In this document: positions 42,420 through 49,171 of the stretch, one piece after another
How the letters are laid out: each line of letters starts with the position of its first letter
Position numbering within the stretch: position 1 is the stretch's first letter
Source: Oleispira sp.
GTDB taxonomy: Bacteria > Pseudomonadota > Gammaproteobacteria > Pseudomonadales > Oceanobacteraceae
Direction of reading: 5' to 3'
Length of the DNA stretch: 64,000 nt
Assembly (NCBI GenBank): GCA_047616865.1
Contig: JBLGBO010000009.1
Coordinates: forward strand, 72,076-136,075
The notes under the pieces: model-generated
Database searches by the model: none
Told to the model about the DNA's origin: nothing
What the model saw: the letters and a program-made list of their open reading frames with translations, nothing else
Made by a program: the position numbers and the translations under genes

Positions 42420-43295
42420 TCAATCGCAATGATGAATACTTTCATTCAATACTCGATGAAATAAAGAATTCAATAAATCTATCGAATCTCCCTTGTCGCC
42501 ATATTTCCCAGCATAGCTTTCAAGCCTTAATAACTCAGTTTCAATAAAGGTATTAATGGGTTTTATAGGCAACGACAAAGCTTTTTCTGTCTCTGCTCGT
42601 TTACGGCGTAATAATTCGTTTATGTCTTCTAGCAAGCTATCGTTATCAAGTACACGATCCAACAAAACCGAAAACTGAATCGGCGCAGGTGTTTTATAAC
42701 GTTCTAACCAGCGTATCGATAGCAAAGCCCTTAGCACATAGAGATATTTTTTATAGGGCACTTTATCTGCTTTAAGATAACCTCGGTAATTGGTCTTGGC
42801 CATGCTGTGATAATGATGAATACCTTTTTCAGCGCTGTATATTTCTGGCAATAATGCCTTAGCACTCAAAGCAAAGTTTCCTTCGTTCGTATAAACAATC
42901 GGTGAATTGATCCACTCTACAAATGACGGATTGGAATTGCTGTATAGCTTCAAGGCTTTACGCAGATCCCAGCCATTAATATCGATCTCATCTACGATGG
43001 GATATTCGATAACATCTCGTTTAGCTTCTAAATCTATGTCTATATACCAATCTTTTTTGTGTATATAGATAAAACGTACATCATAATCACTCGTCGCTGA
43101 GGCAAAACCCCAAGCACGACTCCCTGACTCAATCGCTAGCAATACTTTAACGCCGTGCTCGATTTCTGCCGCGGCGATACGGTCTAATATTTCGTCGTGT
43201 ATGTTTTTTTCTATGTGCTCTATGGCATTTATTTCCATATCCAGTTTCATTTTATTGACTTTCCTTAATATATTTTTTAACCAGGCTAATCTCAT
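42420..43295 (-). CDS. Pol-beta-superfamily nucleotidyltransferase, RlaP-like (RNA-ligase-associated NTase family)
   Basis: GSRAWGFASATSDYDVRFIY is a hG[GS]x9-13DhD minimal NTase active site. 291 aa. Last gene of the rtcBA-linked module. Confidence 0.65.
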   Translation of the reverse strand: MRLAWLKNILRKVNKMKLDMEINAIEHIEKNIHDEILDRIAAAEIEHGVKVLLAIESGSRAWGFASATSDYDVRFIYIHKKDWYIDIDLEAKRDVIEYPIVDEIDINGWDLRKALKLYSNSNPSFVEWINSPIVYTNEGNFALSAKALLPEIYSAEKGIHHYHSMAKTNYRGYLKADKVPYKKYLYVLRALLSIRWLERYKTPAPIQFSVLLDRVLDNDSLLEDINELLRRKRAETEKALSLPIKPINTFIETELLRLESYAGKYGDKGDSIDLLNSLFHRVLNESIHHCD

Positions 43296-43324: not shown

Positions 43325-44521
43325 TTATGTTCCTGACTGTCTAGTAGCAGAAGGGATTTTCACCAAATCATTCATTAAACCATCCAGCCCACCGTAAACA
43401 GAGATGTTATTAATACGGGCTGATATTTTTTCAAGTGTTTCCAGCTCTTTTAGGCGTAACAAGACAGCGTTATTTTCCATGACCTTCGCGGTATTGTGCA
43501 AGGAGCGCATCGCTTGAGTTTCTTCACGCCTTTTAATTAGATTAGCCTCAGCTTCTTTTTGCGCCTCTACTACCTTATTTAAAATTGCCTTCATGTCACC
43601 AGGCAATATAATGTCTTTGACACCCACCGACTGGACTTCAATGCCATACTCCATTAACCGAGTAGATATGCTGTTTTCTATGCATTCATTTAAGCTGTCT
43701 TTGTTTTCTAGCAACGCATCCAACGTTTGCGTACCTACGGCTTCACGTAAACGCAGCTGCATTTCGCGGTAGATAAAATCATTCATGCCATTCAATTTTA
43801 ATGCCGCTTTTTCTGCATCTACTATACAATAACTGGCACTTAGATTAATTCGCAAACTAACCCGGTCGCGCGTCAAAATCTCCTGCCCACTGACCTCCAG
43901 CGATTGTAAGCGTAAATCGATCATTTGCACTTCGATTGCTCTATTGTACTTCCAGAAACCGTACTGGCCTGGTGGCAAGAGGCGCTCATATTTACCGTTT
44001 ACAATTAATAGTGCGCAAAACTCGTTACGTACTTCAATATAACTAACGGCCTGAGCCAGTGTGTGTATTTTTTCCGAACCCGTTTGCATGATGGCATTAG
44101 CACCACGGCCTAAAAGATTCAAGTAACGACTATCGATTTGATAGCTTTCGCTGATATCAATAACCTTCACCGATACTTGTTCAGTATTTTCCATTTCATC
44201 ACCGCTAAAAAAGGCAACAAAACGACCTGGCTCCAACAGATCAACTAAGTGTCCATCACGAAAGACAAGGCCAACCTGATTATCAGTCATTTCATAATGA
44301 CTGATATAAGGCGTTAAAATTTCTGCGTATTTATTTAATAAAAACTTGGCATTATCATCTTGAAAATATAAACCTGTCACGTCGTGAATTTTTAATTCCA
44401 ATGCGCCATTGGCAGAAAATTCTCTGTACCGACCTGGCATTAATATTTTTTCAAAGCGCTGGCAGCGATATAACAAGCCTATCTGATTATCGGCGATATC
44501 ATAAGTGTTCCATAATTTCAT
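43325..44521 (-). CDS. SPFH/band-7 (slipin-like) domain protein with triplicated N-terminal SPFH-head motif
   Basis: C-terminal core GVKDIILPGDMKAILNKVVEAQKEAEANLIKRREETQA is SPFH. Three N-terminal copies of xNQxGLxxRxG...LxPGxYxF. No clear TM segment. Confidence 0.75.
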   Translation of the reverse strand: MKLWNTYDIADNQIGLLYRCQRFEKILMPGRYREFSANGALELKIHDVTGLYFQDDNAKFLLNKYAEILTPYISHYEMTDNQVGLVFRDGHLVDLLEPGRFVAFFSGDEMENTEQVSVKVIDISESYQIDSRYLNLLGRGANAIMQTGSEKIHTLAQAVSYIEVRNEFCALLIVNGKYERLLPPGQYGFWKYNRAIEVQMIDLRLQSLEVSGQEILTRDRVSLRINLSASYCIVDAEKAALKLNGMNDFIYREMQLRLREAVGTQTLDALLENKDSLNECIENSISTRLMEYGIEVQSVGVKDIILPGDMKAILNKVVEAQKEAEANLIKRREETQAMRSLHNTAKVMENNAVLLRLKELETLEKISARINNISVYGGLDGLMNDLVKIPSATRQSGT

Positions 44522-44761
44522 TTCATTTTACCTAACTCATACGAGCCATATTATATTTACTGAGGCGAGACCCTATCGGGAATGGTATGGTATTTTGCTT
44601 AGGTTAACAGGTTGATAAATACAGGGGCTACTCAGTGGTAATAACAACGGTATTCGCTTGCTATTACCATTAATTAGCATGTCGTTATCAAGTCCGCTAA
44701 CCAACCGACAAAATGCGATGCCATTGCAAATGGACCTCTATCAATTTATTCAAAGTTTAAA

Positions 44762-44826
44762 TGACTTTGTGAGGATTTGAACCTCGGGTCTTACGACCTT
44801 ACCGTAAGCCGTTGTTTAGACGGTGA
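44762..44826 (-). ncRNA. tRNA 3'-half-like element (class-II-like variable hairpin + T-arm GGTTCAAATCC + 3' acceptor strand, no 5' half)
   Basis: Reverse complement ...GGTCGTAAGACC-CGAGG-TTCAAAT-CCTCA-CAAAGTC-A. No matching 5' acceptor strand upstream. Directly abuts the tRNA-like element at 44829-44901. Confidence 0.4.
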
Positions 44827-44828
44827 AT

Positions 44829-44901
44829 GACTATCGCAGGAATCGAACCTGCACCGATCGACTTTTGTCGATTGCTCTAACTCACTGAGCTACATAGTCG
44901 C
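44829..44901 (-). ncRNA. non-canonical tRNA-like element (acceptor stem, D-arm and T-arm are good; anticodon loop has 6 nt). Candidate YrlA/Y-RNA-like RNA or tRNA pseudogene.
   Basis: Reverse complement GACTATG-TA-GCTC-AGTGAGTTA-GAGC-A-ATCGA-CAAAAG-TCGAT-CGGT-GCAGG-TTCGATT-CCTGC-GATAGTC-A. Stems pair, but the anticodon loop is 6 nt, so it is not a functional decoder. Confidence 0.5.
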
Positions 44902-45042
44902 ATTTAGGTTTTTTATCAGTGGTACACAATAAGTGAATAACCTTGCGCCAGCCTGGCATACAGAACCAGAACCATTAACTTAATAAAATATTGCCTAAAT
45001 AATTTTGTTCGAACGCTGTTTAAAACAACGCCGTCGCATTTT

Positions 45043-46086
45043 TTAATTTATCAATTCTTGCAAGTTTTTTAGGGGCGGTATATCCAGCTGCCAGCAACGC
45101 TTGTTTAATTGGTTCACTTCAATATTCAAATCCAGAAGTTGTTGAATAACGTTAATATTGGTAGTTGTATGTAAACTTGGTCGCCCTGTTTTAAAACTTC
45201 CCCCAGCAAATAACATCGGCAGTAATAATTGATCCGCCAAATATTCGCATACAGGCACTTGATTTTTCAGGTAACTTTGCACCCGCTGTTCAGCCAAGTT
45301 AGCGACCTTTTCGGCACGTAAACCTCTGCCACCCAGCTCATCAAATACTAGGGTGGTGTTCTCCATCGTCAGCTTCAGTGACAACAAATTTCCTGGCCCC
45401 GTAGACTCAACTAACTGCTCACTACACTCTTCTGGTAGCCAATGATGCTGCTGTTGTAATTGGCGTAATTCACGCACTAACACCTGCTGGGGAATTTGAC
45501 TGCCAATAGCATTGGCTTTTTTATCCACAAGTGCACCACTGTCTAATAACTGCAATGGCTCTAACACTTTGTGCGGTTTCAATTCCATCTTGATTGCACC
45601 ACCACCAGCGGGGTTAAAACCGTATTTCAATAGTTCGGCGGTGATCTGATAACCCATCTTTCTAACGGCCAAAATAAAACTGTTATTTAAAAATTCAAAA
45701 CTTGGTGCTTTGCTATTATGTGTACCGCCATTAATAATTACAGAGGATGCATGCGACTGTAATAATAGAGGCATCATTATAGTTTGTAGTACCAAGCTAG
45801 TACTGCCAGCGCTACCTACGGAAAATTCATAATCGCCGGGAATTACATTCCCTGGTTTAAAAATAACCTCTTGAGATCCCAGCTCATCACCACTGACATC
45901 TGCAGAACAAATAGTTTGTGCAGCGCGCAAGCAGGTTAAGTGCTGGCGTAACAAGCCAGGTTTTTTACGACCCCCTCGGATATTAACGATACGCACATCA
46001 AGACCTAGACACATCGCCAGGGTCAGTGTGGTGCGAAATATTTGTCCTCCACCTTCACCGGCGGCGCCATTAATTGTTCTCATCAT
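45043..46086 (-). CDS. rtcA: RNA 3'-terminal phosphate cyclase
   Basis: MMRTINGAAGEGGGQIFRTTLTLAM... aligns with E. coli RtcA [20 protein letters not shown]. The active-site His region (LQTIMMPLLLQSH) is present. Confidence 0.9.
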   Translation of the reverse strand: MMRTINGAAGEGGGQIFRTTLTLAMCLGLDVRIVNIRGGRKKPGLLRQHLTCLRAAQTICSADVSGDELGSQEVIFKPGNVIPGDYEFSVGSAGSTSLVLQTIMMPLLLQSHASSVIINGGTHNSKAPSFEFLNNSFILAVRKMGYQITAELLKYGFNPAGGGAIKMELKPHKVLEPLQLLDSGALVDKKANAIGSQIPQQVLVRELRQLQQQHHWLPEECSEQLVESTGPGNLLSLKLTMENTTLVFDELGGRGLRAEKVANLAEQRVQSYLKNQVPVCEYLADQLLLPMLFAGGSFKTGRPSLHTTTNINVIQQLLDLNIEVNQLNKRCWQLDIPPLKNLQELIN

Positions 46087-46123
46087 TCTTCCTTTAAATA
46101 CAATTTTCACTAATACTAAGTAA

Positions 46124-47350
46124 TTAACCTTTTACACAGACGACCTGTTTTAGCGTGTAGACAACTTCTACCAGATCTTTTTGCGCCTCCATTACCTTCT
46201 CAATGGATTTGTAAGCTGAAGGGGTTTCATCCAATATGCCCTCATCTGTTCTGCACTCCACACCCTCAAGTGCTTTTTTATGCTCAGTCATCGACACTAA
46301 TTTCTTAGCGGCCGTTCGTGACATCACACGTCCAGCACCATGACTGCAACTGCAAAAACTATCAGCATTGCCCAGTCCCCGCACAATAAAAGATTTTGCA
46401 CCCATGCTGCCAGGGATAATGCCCATCTCATCTTTTTGTGCCGATACCGCGCCCTTACGGGTAACCAATACATCCTTACCAAAATGATGCTCACGAGAAA
46501 TATAGTTATGGTGACAATTCACGGCTTCCACTCTTGCCTCAAACTCAATTCCCATAGTGAGCCTTACCGCCGCAATTACCCGAGCCATCATGACCTCACG
46601 GTTAATACGAGCAAAATTTTGTGCCCACTCTACCGCCTCAACATAATCAGTAAAATTATCGGAGCCCTCTGGCAAATAAGACAAATCGTTATCGGGCAAA
46701 TGTATATGCCAGCGCTCCATATCCTGCTTCGCCTTTTCGATAAAGTGCGTCCCTATACGGTTGCCTACACCACGAGAGCCACTGTGCAGCATAATCCATA
46801 CACTATTGTGCTCATCTAGGCACAACTCAATAAAATGGTTTCCCGTTCCCAACGTACCCAAATGATTCATGTTGTTGGTATTTTTCAAGACCTTATGTTT
46901 TTCTTTTAAAATATCAAACTGACCAGCCAATGGAGTCCACGCCTTAATTACATCTGCGGGTAAATCATTCCACGACCCCTTATCTCGCGCACCACGCAAG
47001 TGCCTAGAACGACCATGAGGAACGGCTTTTTCAATTGCAGAACGAATAGCAAATAAATTATCCGGTAGCTGATGAGCCAACAAACTGGTTTTAACCGCCA
47101 TCATCCCGCAACCAATATCCACTCCGACGGCCGCTGGAATTACCGCACCAATGGTGGGTACTACCGAACCGATCGTAGCGCCTTTACCTAGATGCACATC
47201 CGGCATGGCGGCAATCCATTTATGAATGAAAGGCATACGTGAAATATTTTTTAGCTGTTCACGGGCTTTGTCTTCAAACGGAACCCCTCGGGTCCAGGTT
47301 TTAATCGGTACACCACCGTCTTGCATCACTTCATAGGCTTCATCTGACAT
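46124..47350 (-). CDS. rtcB: RNA-splicing ligase RtcB
   Basis: 408 aa with PDVHLGKGATIGSV and C-terminal His/Cys metal-site motifs of RtcB. Confidence 0.95.
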   Translation of the reverse strand: MSDEAYEVMQDGGVPIKTWTRGVPFEDKAREQLKNISRMPFIHKWIAAMPDVHLGKGATIGSVVPTIGAVIPAAVGVDIGCGMMAVKTSLLAHQLPDNLFAIRSAIEKAVPHGRSRHLRGARDKGSWNDLPADVIKAWTPLAGQFDILKEKHKVLKNTNNMNHLGTLGTGNHFIELCLDEHNSVWIMLHSGSRGVGNRIGTHFIEKAKQDMERWHIHLPDNDLSYLPEGSDNFTDYVEAVEWAQNFARINREVMMARVIAAVRLTMGIEFEARVEAVNCHHNYISREHHFGKDVLVTRKGAVSAQKDEMGIIPGSMGAKSFIVRGLGNADSFCSCSHGAGRVMSRTAAKKLVSMTEHKKALEGVECRTDEGILDETPSAYKSIEKVMEAQKDLVEVVYTLKQVVCVKG

Positions 47351-47416: not shown

Positions 47417-47433
47417 AGCGATGACTATGCCAA
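47417..47433 (-). promoter_or_regulatory. sigma54 (-24/-12) promoter for rtcBA
   Basis: Minus-strand TTGGCAT-AGTCA-TCGCT has GG-N10-GC at canonical spacing, ~70 bp upstream of the rtcB ATG. The RtcR bEBP is encoded divergently. Confidence 0.45.
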
Positions 47434-47575: not shown

Positions 47576-49171
47576 ATGAAAACTGTTGCTATTAGTATAT
47601 TGGGTACCGTGCTAGATCGACGAGGAAAACGCCAAAACCGCTGGGATAAGTGGCGACCTACCGTCTCCATCTGCCAACAAGATGACTTAGTGATCGATCG
47701 TCTGGAGTTAATCTTTGATAACCATTCGCTAACCTTGGCTGAACAGGTCAAAGACGACATCGAGCAATCATCACCAGAAACCGAAGTTGTGCTCCATAAG
47801 GTTAATTATTTAGACCCATGGGACTTTGAAGATGTTTATAGCCAGCTTCTAGATTTCAGTCGAGCCTATGATTTCAATACCGATACAGAAGACTATTTAG
47901 TCCACATCACCACAGGGACACACGTTGCTCAGATCTGCCTGTATCTACTAACGGAATCTGGCTACCTGCCTGGGAAGTTAATACAAACCTCACCTTCAAA
48001 AAGTGAAAACAAAGCTAAGGGCTCTTATCAAATCATTGATCTGGATTTATCACGATATGACCAAATAGCCTCTCGCTTCAATAAAGAACATACTGAAGGC
48101 ACCACGCATCTCAAAAGTGGCATTGACACAAAAAACGAAAAATTTAATCTAATGATCGAGCAATTAGAGAAAGTATCCATTCGTTCCGATGAGCCTATTT
48201 TAATCACTGGACCAACAGGCGCAGGCAAATCGAAGCTGGCTGAGCGTATTTATCAATTGCGCAAACAGCGCGCCAAACTAAAGGGAAAACTCATTACGGT
48301 AAATTGTGCAACTTTACGTGGCGATAACGCCATCTCAGCATTATTTGGCCATAAAAAGGGAGCGTTTACTGGAGCGGCAGCAGACCGCACCGGTCTTTTA
48401 AGGGAGGCTAATGACGGTTTATTATTTTTAGATGAGATTGGTGAGCTTGGACTGGATGAGCAAGCAATGTTACTCAGCGCCATTGAAGATAAGCATTTTA
48501 TGCCACTCGGTTCAGATAAAATGGTGTTCAGTGATTTTCAATTAATTGTCGGCACTAACAGAGACTTAATTAAGCAAAGCCAACAAGGAAAGTTCAGGGA
48601 AGATCTATTAGCGCGTATTGATTTATGGACTTACCGATTACCAGCCCTAAAAGAACGCTTAGAAGATTTTGACGCCAATCTTGATTTTGAATTAGATAAA
48701 TTTTCTAGCAAGGCCGGTTACCTAGTGAAATTCAACAAGGCGGCCCGCGAAAAATATTTAGCCTTTTCTAAATCACCAGCCGCTAGCTGGAATGCTAATT
48801 TTCGGGATCTAAATGCCAGCATCACTCGAATGTCTACCCTGTCAGATGGAGGACGCATTACCGAAGACTTAGTTACTGAAGAAGTACTACGACTAAAGCA
48901 CAAATGGCGCGAGACAAATAGCACTGATCCCACACTGGTTTTGCAGTCACTGTTAGATGAGAAGACTTTAAGCGATATGGATTATTACGACCAACTTAAC
49001 TTACTTAATATCATCGATATTTGCCGCAACAGTCAATCAATGGCCGAAGCTGGGAGAACGCTATTTGACAAAAGCCGCCAAATTAAAAAGTCATCCAACG
49101 ACTCTCATAGAGTAAAACAACTACTCAGTAAGCTAGATATTTCTTTCGAAAAAATTCGACAACTGCCATAA
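47576..49171 (+). CDS. rtcR: sigma54-dependent transcriptional activator RtcR (N-terminal CARF-like domain, AAA+ sigma54-interaction domain, C-terminal HTH)
   Basis: Walker A GPTGAGKS and the GAFTGA motif (HKKGAFTGAAADR). 531 aa, divergent from rtcB. Confidence 0.9.
   Translation: MKTVAISILGTVLDRRGKRQNRWDKWRPTVSICQQDDLVIDRLELIFDNHSLTLAEQVKDDIEQSSPETEVVLHKVNYLDPWDFEDVYSQLLDFSRAYDFNTDTEDYLVHITTGTHVAQICLYLLTESGYLPGKLIQTSPSKSENKAKGSYQIIDLDLSRYDQIASRFNKEHTEGTTHLKSGIDTKNEKFNLMIEQLEKVSIRSDEPILITGPTGAGKSKLAERIYQLRKQRAKLKGKLITVNCATLRGDNAISALFGHKKGAFTGAAADRTGLLREANDGLLFLDEIGELGLDEQAMLLSAIEDKHFMPLGSDKMVFSDFQLIVGTNRDLIKQSQQGKFREDLLARIDLWTYRLPALKERLEDFDANLDFELDKFSSKAGYLVKFNKAAREKYLAFSKSPAASWNANFRDLNASITRMSTLSDGGRITEDLVTEEVLRLKHKWRETNSTDPTLVLQSLLDEKTLSDMDYYDQLNLLNIIDICRNSQSMAEAGRTLFDKSRQIKKSSNDSHRVKQLLSKLDISFEKIRQLP

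What the first reader, a model, noticed from the sequence alone, without database searches (positions are those of the whole stretch)
42420..43295. RlaP-like minimal nucleotidyltransferase as terminal gene of the RtcB module
The 291-aa protein has the Pol-beta-superfamily signature GSRAWGFASATSDYDV (GS ... DxD) followed by a ~180-aa helical region. This is the architecture of the RNA-ligase-associated NTase family described from RNA-repair operon context analyses. Its substrate is unknown; candidates include CCA-like tailing or nucleotidylation of the adjacent tRNA-like RNAs or of damaged RNA 3' ends. The annotated ORF start probably over-extends; Met at residue 16 or 20 is the likely true start.
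Basis: partly seen in the sequence, partly recalled or inferred. Interest (0 to 1): 0.55.

Follow-up and report, generated by a model that had tools for sequence, protein, structure and literature searches.

The report
RlaP RNA-repair nucleotidyltransferase ending an RtcB operon

Summary
The ORF at 42420-43295 (-) exists and carries GSRAWGFASATSDYDV at residues 58-73. It matches Pfam PF10127 (RlaP) end to end (E 1.9e-81) and matches no other nucleotidyltransferase family. It is 47-48% identical to the two Pseudomonas RlaP enzymes characterised in a December 2025 preprint, which add 1-2 NMP to RNA 3'-OH ends and prefer Mn2+. All three catalytic motifs align: G58-S59, D70/D72 and D105.

The true start is Met16 (ATG at 43250). 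An AAGGA Shine-Dalgarno lies 11 nt upstream, and two sister lineages have in-frame stops within the 15-codon extension.

The gene is the last one in this set: sigma54 promoter, rtcB, rtcA, tRNA-like RNA(s), Band-7 gene, rlaP, with rtcR divergent. This is the Band-7/"b7a-tRNA" RtcB operon type attributed to Burroughs and Aravind (2016).

Three caveats apply:
- "Substrate unknown" is now outdated.
- Most close homologues (48 of 52 well-flanked genomic loci) are not next to any RNA-repair gene.
- RlaP's 3'-OH product does not fit RtcB's need for a 3'-phosphate, so its role in the cell is still open.

In related Band-7 operons rlaP sits directly after a CCA-adding/repair enzyme or RNase Z. That points to tRNA 3'-end chemistry.

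Verdict: a new member of a known kind, of modest interest.

The parts
42420..43250 (-). rlaP coding sequence from the likely true start Met16 (276 aa). The mechanical ORF extends to 43295 (291 aa).
   Evidence: Pfam PF10127 E 1.9e-81. 47-48% identity to PfRlaP and PaRlaP. Close homologues are called at 276 aa. Sister contigs have in-frame stops in the upstream extension.
43262..43266 (-). Shine-Dalgarno-like AAGGA, 11 nt upstream of the Met16 ATG
   Evidence: Read from the sequence. It is conserved in sister L081.
43077..43124 (-). Codons for GSRAWGFASATSDYDV (ORF residues 58-73), holding the hG[GS] motif and the DxD metal-binding carboxylates D70 and D72
   Evidence: The residues are invariant in alignments A1, A3 and A4. 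They align with the catalytic motifs marked in preprint Fig. S3.
42981..42983 (-). Codon for D105 (D90 in Met16 numbering), the likely third catalytic aspartate within DEIDINGW
   Evidence: Invariant down to 25% identical phage homologues. It aligns with the bolded D of ELDV/ELDI in PfRlaP and PaRlaP. It lies at the start of strand 89-95 in the model.
43325..44521 (-). Band-7/SPFH protein gene (398 aa), immediately upstream of rlaP
   Evidence: Pfam Band_7 E 4.8e-29. Homologues occur in RtcB operons of Alteromonadales-type loci and metagenomes.
44828..44899 (-). tRNA-like RNA of the 'b7a-tRNA' type with a 6-nt anticodon loop
   Evidence: Rfam tRNA 51.2 bits against a gathering score of 29. ARAGORN reports a 2-nt 'anticodon'. 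Equivalent elements lie upstream of Band-7 genes in related loci. The literature description is cited.
44762..44827 (-). Degenerate second tRNA-like unit. Only a T-arm-like GAGGTTCAAATCCTC is evident.
   Evidence: Read from the sequence. Neither ARAGORN nor Rfam calls it. Related loci carry two or three full tandem units.
45043..46110 (-). rtcA (RNA 3'-terminal phosphate cyclase)
   Evidence: Pfam RTC E 4.3e-72. NCBIfam NF003246 at 368 bits against a cutoff of 352.
46124..47350 (-). rtcB (3'-phosphate RNA ligase)
   Evidence: Pfam RtcB E 3.3e-127.
47417..47432 (-). Sigma54-type promoter element TGGCATAGTCATCGCT, about 65 nt upstream of the rtcB ATG
   Evidence: Single match in the window, with 0.17 expected by chance. 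It is conserved at the same position in L081, L083, L087 and L094. Sequence.
47576..49171 (+). rtcR (sigma54-dependent activator of the RNA-repair operon), divergent from rtcB
   Evidence: NCBIfam NF038308 at 759 bits against a cutoff of 650. Pfam RtcR plus Sigma54_activat.

Best explanation
The gene encodes a catalytically intact RlaP-family (PF10127) Pol-beta-type nucleotidyltransferase. By homology to the characterised Pseudomonas enzymes, it most likely uses Mn2+ and any NTP to add one or two untemplated nucleotides to the 3'-OH end of RNA. It would not act on 3'-phosphate ends or on DNA, and it would prefer broken tRNA-like substrates.

It is most likely transcribed from the RtcR/sigma54 promoter as the last cistron of rtcB-rtcA-(tRNA-like RNA)-band7-rlaP. 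It would therefore be made when RNA damage switches on RtcR. Its probable job is to re-extend RNA, most likely tRNA or tRNA-like, whose 3' end has lost nucleotides. This would run alongside RtcB sealing of 3'-phosphate/5'-OH breaks.

Shown here: family membership, intact active-site residues, operon position, and conservation of that position in the nearest relatives. Inferred: the enzymatic activity (from 47-48% identical enzymes), co-transcription, and the substrate in the cell.
For: - Family: PF10127 matches full length at E 1.9e-81, with no other family matched. PHROG 14344 'nucleotidyltransferase' matches at 4.5e-68.
- Link to characterised enzymes: 48% and 47% identity to PfRlaP and PaRlaP (E 2e-65 and 6e-69), with GS, DxD and the third Asp aligned. 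Those enzymes add 1-2 NMP to RNA 3'-OH, reject 3'-P ends and DNA, prefer Mn2+, and favour the 5' half of a nicked tRNA.
- Active site: the catalytic residues, plus R45, R59, K98, K167, R174 and K217 (Met16 numbering), are invariant down to 25% identity.
- Structure: a confident two-domain model, nucleotidyltransferase domain plus helical domain.
- Operon: rtcR | sigma54 element | rtcB-rtcA-tRNA-like-band7-rlaP, all on one strand, with a 74-nt band7-rlaP spacer and no terminator predicted there.
- Conserved position: rlaP closes the rtcB operon in every relative of at least 69% identity whose context I examined (L081-L089). It also does so in Alteromonadales-type loci and in 16 of 25 metagenomic Band-7 plus RtcB loci.
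- tRNA 3'-end theme: in 12 related loci rlaP lies directly after a multifunctional CCA addition/repair gene, and in 3 loci directly after RNase Z.
- Phages: in jumbo phages CcrColossus and BcepSauron the homologue lies 1.4-1.8 kb from an annotated RNA ligase.
Against: - No activity was measured for this protein. The biochemical reference is a single unreviewed preprint, and the sequences I compared were machine-read from its supplementary figure.
- RlaP makes 3'-OH ends, but RtcB needs 3'-phosphate or 2',3'-cyclic phosphate. The preprint's authors flag this themselves. The window operon encodes no phosphatase or kinase to bridge the gap.
- Of 52 well-flanked genomic loci with homologues of 55-65% identity, 48 have no RtcB, RtcA, RtcR, Band-7, Cca or RNase Z gene nearby, and no other conserved neighbour. 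The enzyme therefore does not depend on a linked ligase.
- Co-transcription is inferred only. No terminator was predicted downstream of rlaP either.
Confidence: 0.8

Rival explanations
1. RlaP's dedicated substrates are the operon's own tRNA-like RNAs (b7a-tRNAs), or the acceptor 3' ends of trimmed tRNAs. It would perform a CCA-like maturation or repair step rather than refilling anticodon-loop gaps. This refines the main explanation and does not fully exclude it.
For: - A tRNA-like RNA that passes the Rfam tRNA threshold lies about 1.5 kb upstream in the same operon and has no encoded CCA.
- In related Band-7 operons rlaP directly follows, sometimes overlapping, a multifunctional CCA addition/repair gene (NF008137, 489 bits against a 451 cutoff) or RNase Z (TIGR02651, 293 bits against 292.95). 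Both are tRNA 3'-end enzymes.
- tRNA-like units sit upstream of Band-7 genes in nearly all related loci.
Against: - Sister lineages deleted the tRNA-like RNA and Band-7 gene but kept rlaP intact.
- Most homologues have no tRNA-like neighbour.
- In the preprint, annealing into a tRNA-like complex lowered reactivity at the acceptor-side 3' end and raised it at the anticodon-loop break.
- RlaP shows little NTP specificity, unlike CCA addition.
Confidence: 0.2
2. It is an antibiotic or small-molecule nucleotidyltransferase of the ANT(4')/KNTase, Lnu/LinB or AAD(9) type that happens to lie beside the RNA-repair genes.
For: The best solved-structure matches are ANT(4')/KNTase (6un8, 1kny; E 1.7e-5), LinB and AAD(9). 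They share the arrangement of a nucleotidyltransferase domain plus a helical domain.
Against: - The similarity is at fold level only (TM 0.22-0.47, 10-15% identity).
- No Pfam or NCBIfam resistance family matched.
- Operon membership is conserved in relatives.
- Characterised family members act on RNA and not on DNA or protein.
Confidence: 0.02
3. It synthesises or remodels a nucleotide signal, as the Hailong HalB enzyme makes oligodeoxyadenylate. The signal would feed back on the CARF-domain regulator RtcR rather than repair RNA.
For: HalB is among the top structural neighbours (9dbh/9dbj, TM 0.38-0.55). In L037 and L045 rlaP lies directly downstream of rtcR on the same strand, not with rtcBA.
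Against: - The similarity to HalB is structural only (9-12% identity).
- There is no HalA-like effector gene.
- The preprint found primer-dependent +1/+2 addition to RNA and does not describe free oligonucleotide synthesis.
- Most homologues are not near rtcR.
Confidence: 0.03

Closest known systems
PfRlaP and PaRlaP, the RlaP enzymes of Pseudomonas fluorescens and P. aeruginosa (Carruthers, Fatma and Huang, bioRxiv 10.64898/2025.12.29.696909)
   Same: Same Pfam family (PF10127). 47-48% identity over about 220-255 residues, with GS, DxD and the third Asp aligned. Same two-domain architecture. Encoded in an RtcR-regulated rtcB/rtcA operon.
   Different: In Pseudomonas the gene lies between rtcB and rtcA. 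Here it is last, after a tRNA-like RNA and a Band-7 gene that the two Pseudomonas operons, as described in the preprint, do not include. The activity of the window protein is untested.
Band-7 / b7a-tRNA type of RtcB operon (Burroughs and Aravind 2016, as summarised in bioRxiv 10.1101/312249)
   Same: RtcB is encoded together with a Band-7 domain protein and a predicted tRNA-like RNA. The same gene set recurs in Alteromonadales-type and metagenomic loci.
   Different: The gene order differs. In the window the tRNA-like/Band-7 cassette follows rtcA; in most relatives it precedes rtcB. Only one full tRNA-like unit is left here. I could not read the 2016 paper, so I cannot say whether RlaP, Cca and RNase Z were already listed as parts of this operon type.
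Jumbo-phage RlaP homologues (phiKZ gp237, BcepSauron gp377, CcrColossus gp172), annotated 'YcgL' or 'nucleotidyltransferase'
   Same: 31-42% identity with all catalytic residues conserved. An RNA ligase gene lies nearby in BcepSauron and CcrColossus.
   Different: The setting is phage-encoded. The nearby ligase is annotated as an RnlA-type/putative RNA ligase rather than RtcB. There is no RtcR, Band-7 gene or tRNA-like RNA.
Kanamycin nucleotidyltransferase / ANT(4') and Hailong HalB, the nearest solved structures
   Same: A Pol-beta nucleotidyltransferase domain followed by a helical domain.
   Different: 10-14% identity and TM below 0.55. The substrates differ (aminoglycosides; free dATP polymerisation). 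The genomic context also differs.

Membership tests
RlaP (Pfam PF10127) | Sequence match to the family profile above the curated threshold, over the full domain | tested here: met
   273.9 bits against a cutoff of 23, E 1.9e-81, profile positions 1-248 of 249.
RlaP (Pfam PF10127) | Pol-beta nucleotidyltransferase catalytic motifs: hG[GS], [DE]h[DE]h, and a third h[DE]h carboxylate | tested here: met
   G58-S59, D70-Y-D72 and D105 (ORF numbering). They are invariant in A1, A3 and A4 down to 25% identity. They align with the motifs marked in PfRlaP and PaRlaP.
RlaP (Pfam PF10127) | N-terminal nucleotidyltransferase domain plus C-terminal helical domain, as in the PfRlaP crystal structure | tested here: met
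   AF2 model with pLDDT 91.2: strands and helices over residues 15-122, then helices over 126-271. Whether the last helix packs back onto the nucleotidyltransferase domain, as described, was not checked.
RlaP (Pfam PF10127) | Gene-neighbourhood association with an RNA ligase, the origin of the family name | tested here: met
   rtcB lies on the same strand about 2.9 kb upstream, in one apparent operon. This is conserved in L081-L089. It does not hold for 48 of 52 well-flanked homologous loci at 55-65% identity, so it is not universal in the family.
RlaP (Pfam PF10127) | Mn2+-dependent addition of 1-2 NMP to RNA 3'-OH | not testable with these tools
   Known only for PfRlaP and PaRlaP. Testing it here needs purified protein.
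Band-7 / b7a-tRNA RtcB operon | RtcB encoded with a Band-7 domain protein and an adjacent tRNA-like RNA | tested here: met
   Band_7 E 4.8e-29. Rfam tRNA 51.2 bits at 44828-44899, 306 nt upstream of the Band-7 start. Definition taken.
Antibiotic nucleotidyltransferases (ANT(4'), Lnu/Lin, AAD) | Sequence membership in a resistance nucleotidyltransferase family | tested here: not met
   No Pfam or NCBIfam hit other than RlaP. Only fold-level similarity, TM 0.22-0.47 at 10-15% identity.
DUF4037-type nucleotidyltransferases | Sequence match to the DUF4037 profile | tested here: not met
   No such Pfam hit at E<=0.01.
Class II CCA-adding enzyme / poly(A) polymerase (PF01743) | PolyA_pol head domain | tested here: not met
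   No PF01743 hit for the window protein. True Cca genes (PF01743, PF12627 and HD) sit next to rlaP in related loci as separate proteins.
Known anti-phage defence nucleotidyltransferases (PADLOC models) | Match to a defence-system protein model | tested here: not met
   No PADLOC hit for RlaP or the Band-7 protein.

The most novel reading that the evidence does not exclude
In Band-7-type RtcB operons, RlaP may belong to a dedicated tRNA 3'-end branch rather than an anticodon-loop refilling step. The other parts would be the CCA-less tRNA-like RNAs and, in relatives, an operon-encoded CCA/repair enzyme or RNase Z. In the window, which has neither Cca nor RNase Z, RlaP alone would re-extend trimmed tRNA or tRNA-like 3' ends. 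The tRNA-like RNAs, with their odd-sized anticodon loops, could serve as decoys or sensors for tRNA-targeting nucleases. This would also explain why RlaP's 3'-OH chemistry does not feed RtcB.
Probability: 0.2. Interest if true: 0.6.

Novelty: new member of a known kind. Interest (0 to 1): 0.25.

Why it matters
The annotation itself is routine. The family was named from gene-context analysis in 2016, and a 2025 preprint gave it a biochemical activity.

This locus is useful as a compact natural example that puts RtcB, RtcA, a tRNA-like RNA, a Band-7 protein and RlaP under one RtcR/sigma54 promoter. Sister lineages have cleanly deleted the tRNA-like/Band-7 cassette, which makes a ready-made comparison.

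The open question is how a 3'-OH-producing tailing enzyme cooperates with a ligase that needs a 3'-phosphate. The comparative data here bear on it, because rlaP is tightly coupled to Cca or RNase Z genes in related operons. That suggests testing tRNA 3'-end repair directly. Solving this would clarify what bacterial Rtc systems repair.

Tried and rejected
- PDB sequence search found no relative. The PfRlaP crystal structure is not in the PDB copies searched, so structural comparison reached only distant nucleotidyltransferases.
- NCBIfam and PADLOC have no model that matches the protein.
- Burroughs and Aravind 2016, the paper that named the family, is not held under its DOI or the PMC id I recalled. 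Statements about it rest on two papers that cite it.
- The strict sigma54 consensus TGGCAC-N4-6-TTGC has no match in the window. A relaxed pattern found the single element upstream of rtcB.
- Simple terminator scans and folding found no convincing terminator after rlaP or between band7 and rlaP. Operon boundaries therefore rest on gene orientation.
- The genome collection did not return the source species. The best locus is 65% identical, so close context came from exact-protein look-ups instead.
- My greedy ORF caller produced spurious opposite-strand ORFs in high-GC loci. The neighbourhood counts that I quote rely on tblastn.
- Rejected readings: antibiotic nucleotidyltransferase, signal synthase, and a degenerate or inactive enzyme. 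All catalytic residues are intact.
- A first Band-7 alignment failed because a coordinate range contained a stop codon. It was redone from ORF coordinates.

Full report
**Observation**

The minus-strand ORF 42420-43295 encodes 291 aa. It contains GSRAWGFASATSDYDV at residues 58-73. Pfam gives one hit, PF10127 "RlaP, RNA repair pathway DNA polymerase beta family": E 1.9e-81, 273.9 bits, residues 32-280 covering profile positions 1-248 of 249. No other nucleotidyltransferase family appears at E<=0.01. NCBIfam and PADLOC have no matching model. PHROG 14344 "nucleotidyltransferase" matches at 4.5e-68. At least 7,999 database proteins match at E<=1e-5, all of the listed ones carrying PF10127. The gene is real and the family call is secure.

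**Start codon**

The closest homologues (99, 95 and 91% identity) are called at 276 aa, which corresponds to Met16. AAGGA lies 11 nt upstream of the ATG at 43250, while the ATG at 43295 has no such motif. In sister contigs L081 and L087, the 15 codons before the Met16 equivalent contain three or four in-frame stops. A 2-nt indel also puts the upstream ATG out of frame there. Position 20 is Ile in those sisters, whereas the Sinobacterium homologue starts at the Met20 equivalent.

**Active site and fold**

I aligned the window protein with three bacterial homologues (62-68% identical) and with four phage homologues: phiKZ gp237, BcepSauron gp377, CcrColossus gp172 and Fusobacterium phage Fnu1 gp006 (25-37% identical). 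The invariant positions, in Met16 numbering, are G43, S44, R45, G48, S51, S54, D55, D57, R59, Y62, Y69, D79, D90, K98, N107, E112, W113, Y120, H146, Y147, K167, R174 and K217. In ORF numbering the catalytic set is G58-S59, D70, D72 and D105.

An AlphaFold2 model built on 48 sequences is confident (pLDDT 91.2, pTM 0.88). It shows an alpha/beta nucleotidyltransferase domain followed by a helical domain.

Foldseek against the PDB finds only distant two-domain nucleotidyltransferases: ANT(4')/KNTase, Hailong HalB, 3c18, LinB and AAD(9). Their TM-scores are 0.22-0.55 at 9-15% identity. No RlaP structure is in that copy, and a sequence search of the PDB also found nothing.

**Link to experiment**

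A December 2025 bioRxiv preprint (10.64898/2025.12.29.696909) characterises RlaP from P. fluorescens and P. aeruginosa. Its findings are:
- The enzymes add one or two NMPs from any NTP, and also dATP, to the 3'-OH of RNA.
- They do not act on 3'-phosphorylated RNA, DNA or protein.
- They prefer Mn2+ or Co2+ over Mg2+.
- They favour the 3' end of the 5' half in a nicked-tRNA mimic.
- The 2.1 A structure is a nucleotidyltransferase domain plus a helical domain with a conserved cleft.

The authors propose that RlaP refills nucleotides removed by "smart" ribotoxins before ligation. They also point out that a 3'-OH product is incompatible with RtcB.

I took the two sequences from the preprint's supplementary Fig. 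S3 (machine-read). The window protein is 48% and 47% identical to them (E 2e-65 and 6e-69), and the three marked catalytic motifs align exactly.

**Surroundings**

On the minus strand the order is as follows:
- rtcB, 46124-47350
- rtcA, 45043-46110
- a 520-nt spacer holding a tRNA-like RNA at 44828-44899 (Rfam tRNA 51.2 bits; 6-nt anticodon loop) and a degenerate second unit
- a Band-7/SPFH gene, 43325-44521
- rlaP

rtcR (47576-49171) is divergent. A sigma54-type element, TGGCATAGTCATCGCT, lies at 47417-47432, about 65 nt before the rtcB ATG. It is the only match in the window (0.17 expected) and is conserved at the same place in four related contigs. No terminator is predicted between band7 and rlaP, which are 74 nt apart. 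The next gene downstream is convergent. rlaP is therefore plausibly the last cistron of the RtcR-dependent transcript, although that is an inference.

Adjacency of RtcB to a Band-7 protein and a "band 7-associated tRNA" is attributed to Burroughs and Aravind 2016 by bioRxiv 10.1101/312249. I could not read the 2016 paper itself.

**Comparative context: nearest relatives**

A 99% identical protein lies in the same rtcB-rtcA-band7-rlaP order (L086). The 95% and 91% lineages have rtcB-rtcA-rlaP with a gap of about 224 bp. For L081, that gap aligns as a fusion of the sequence just after rtcA with the last ~60 nt of the Band-7 gene, joined at a GGCTGG micro-repeat. This is a deletion of about 1.57 kb that removed the tRNA-like RNA and Band-7 gene and kept rlaP. 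Sinobacterium caligoides (69%) has rtcR | rtcB-rlaP.

**Comparative context: more distant relatives**

Among 80 species-representative genomic loci at 55-65% identity, only a few are linked to repair genes:
- Three Alteromonadales-type loci carry rtcR | tRNA-like x2-band7-rtcB-rtcA-(cca)-rlaP.
- Two loci carry rtcA-rtcB | rtcR-rlaP.

Of the 52 loci with at least 5 kb on both sides, 48 show no RtcB, RtcA, RtcR, Band-7, Cca or RNase Z homologue. No other conserved neighbour appears either. RtcB-linked genes fall in at least four separate clades of a neighbour-joining tree. Ligase linkage is thus real here but patchy in this part of the family.

**Comparative context: from the Band-7 side**

A metagenome scan with a Band-7 alignment gave 25 loci that hold both Band-7 and RtcB, and 16 of them also hold RlaP. 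In 12 loci across both scans rlaP lies directly after, and sometimes overlaps, a gene for a multifunctional CCA addition/repair protein. That gene has PolyA_pol, RNA-binding and HD domains and scores 489 bits on NCBIfam NF008137 against a 451 cutoff. In three loci rlaP lies directly after RNase Z (TIGR02651, 293 bits against 292.95), which is preceded by a DUF4275 or zf_Tbcl protein. The window has neither gene.

Both Cca and RNase Z make or use tRNA 3'-OH ends. From my own knowledge, the E. coli Cca HD domain also has 2',3'-cyclic phosphodiesterase and phosphatase activity. This neighbourhood fits an enzyme that needs 3'-OH RNA. It hints that RlaP serves a tRNA 3'-end branch running parallel to RtcB sealing.

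**Mechanism proposed**

RNA damage activates RtcR. From my own knowledge, Hughes et al. 2020 reported that tRNA fragments ending in a 2',3'-cyclic phosphate bind its CARF domain. RtcR then fires the sigma54 promoter. RtcB and RtcA deal with 3'-phosphate/5'-OH breaks. RlaP, with Mn2+ and any NTP, adds 1-2 nt to 3'-OH ends of tRNA or tRNA-like RNA that have lost nucleotides.

Family membership and an intact active site are shown. Activity is inferred from enzymes 47-48% identical. Co-transcription and the physiological substrate are inferred.

**Rivals**

- A dedicated role on the operon's own tRNA-like RNAs or on tRNA acceptor ends. This is compatible with the Cca and RNase Z neighbours. It is weakened because sisters lost the tRNA-like RNA yet kept rlaP, and by the preprint's substrate preference.
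- An antibiotic nucleotidyltransferase. The similarity is at fold level only.
- A HalB-like signal synthase acting on RtcR. There is no supporting chemistry or partner gene.

**Verdict**

This is a new member of a known and recently characterised family, in a previously described operon type. Interest is modest. What remains of value is the unresolved RlaP/RtcB end-chemistry problem and the Cca/RNase Z coupling seen in relatives.

Noticed in passing
window 43383-44946 compared with L081:7800-7960, L083 and L087: Sister lineages with 91-95% identical RlaP have only a ~224-bp gap between rtcA and rlaP, with no tRNA-like RNA or Band-7 gene called. In L081 the gap aligns as a ~1.57-kb deletion joined at a GGCTGG micro-repeat, leaving the last ~60 nt of the Band-7 gene as a remnant. 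The cassette is therefore dispensable for keeping rlaP.
   Followed up: yes
window 44762-44899 (-); L050:6193-6333, L055:2353-2496, L068:6142-6287, L101:7588-7800, L104:5097-5310: The Band-7-associated tRNA-like RNAs come as 1-3 tandem units directly upstream of Band-7 genes. Their anticodon loops are often abnormal: ARAGORN reports 2-nt or 4-nt 'anticodons', or anticodon TTA ('tRNA-Stop'). Apart from L050 unit 1, they have no clearly encoded CCA. In the window only unit 1 is intact, with a 6-nt loop, and unit 2 keeps little more than a T-arm.
   Followed up: partly
window 44626-44700 (-); L068:6310-6400, L055:2540-2610, L050:6370-6440: Downstream of the tRNA-like units and before the Band-7 start, the loci share short sequence blocks and a hairpin built around GCAAGC. 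Examples are GTTATTACCACTG in the window and L068, and AGCAAGCGGGA..GCTCCC in L055. These may belong to a larger structured RNA. No Rfam family matches.
   Followed up: no
L101:11572-12840, L103-L106, L109, L111, L113, L119, L121, L055:6134-7252; L099:9723-10703, L129:12773-13732, L145:11425-12396: In related Band-7-type RtcB operons, rlaP lies immediately downstream of a multifunctional CCA addition/repair gene or an RNase Z gene. The RNase Z gene is preceded by a DUF4275 or zf_Tbcl protein. The window operon lacks these genes.
   Followed up: partly
L116:266-2638, L117:1279-3749, L099:13907-16987, L094:5681-6508: Arrays of 5 to 23 ordinary-looking tRNA genes lie within a few kb of Band-7/RtcB(/RlaP) clusters in several metagenomic contigs. 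This suggests a tRNA back-up supply linked to the repair genes.
   Followed up: no
L091 (CcrColossus gp172, with gp167 RNA ligase), L093 (BcepSauron_377, with _373 RNA ligase), L090 (phiKZ gp237): RlaP homologues of 31-42% identity are found in 89 phage records, mostly jumbo phages of Pseudomonas, Burkholderia, Caulobacter and Brevundimonas. They are often annotated 'YcgL'. In two phages examined, an annotated RNA ligase lies 1.4-1.8 kb away.
   Followed up: partly
L087:5406-8086, L088, L089: In the lineage with 91% identical RlaP, the genes after rlaP run in the same direction and encode an AAA ATPase, a 136-aa protein and a TPR protein. The window instead has the convergent SBP_bac_3 gene. 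Synteny breaks exactly at the 3' end of rlaP.
   Followed up: no
window 45043-46110 (-): The mechanical rtcA ORF (355 aa, GTG start) is probably over-extended as well. The orthologue is called at 346 aa in several sister contigs and at 360 aa in others.
   Followed up: no
window 43325-44521 (-), residues 1-163 of the Band-7 protein: The Pfam Band_7 domain covers only residues 164-334. The ~160-aa N-terminal part has no family hit and seems to repeat a short motif (..DNQ[IV]GL.. ...L.PGR[YF]...) two or three times. I did not look for a membrane segment.
   Followed up: no
L037:3022-5425, L045:8310-10777: In two betaproteobacterial loci (Janthinobacterium, Rhodoferax) rlaP follows rtcR on the same strand, while rtcB and rtcA are divergent. 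L045 and two other loci (L054, L067) also carry a distant RtcB paralogue (28-29% identity) just downstream of rlaP.
   Followed up: no
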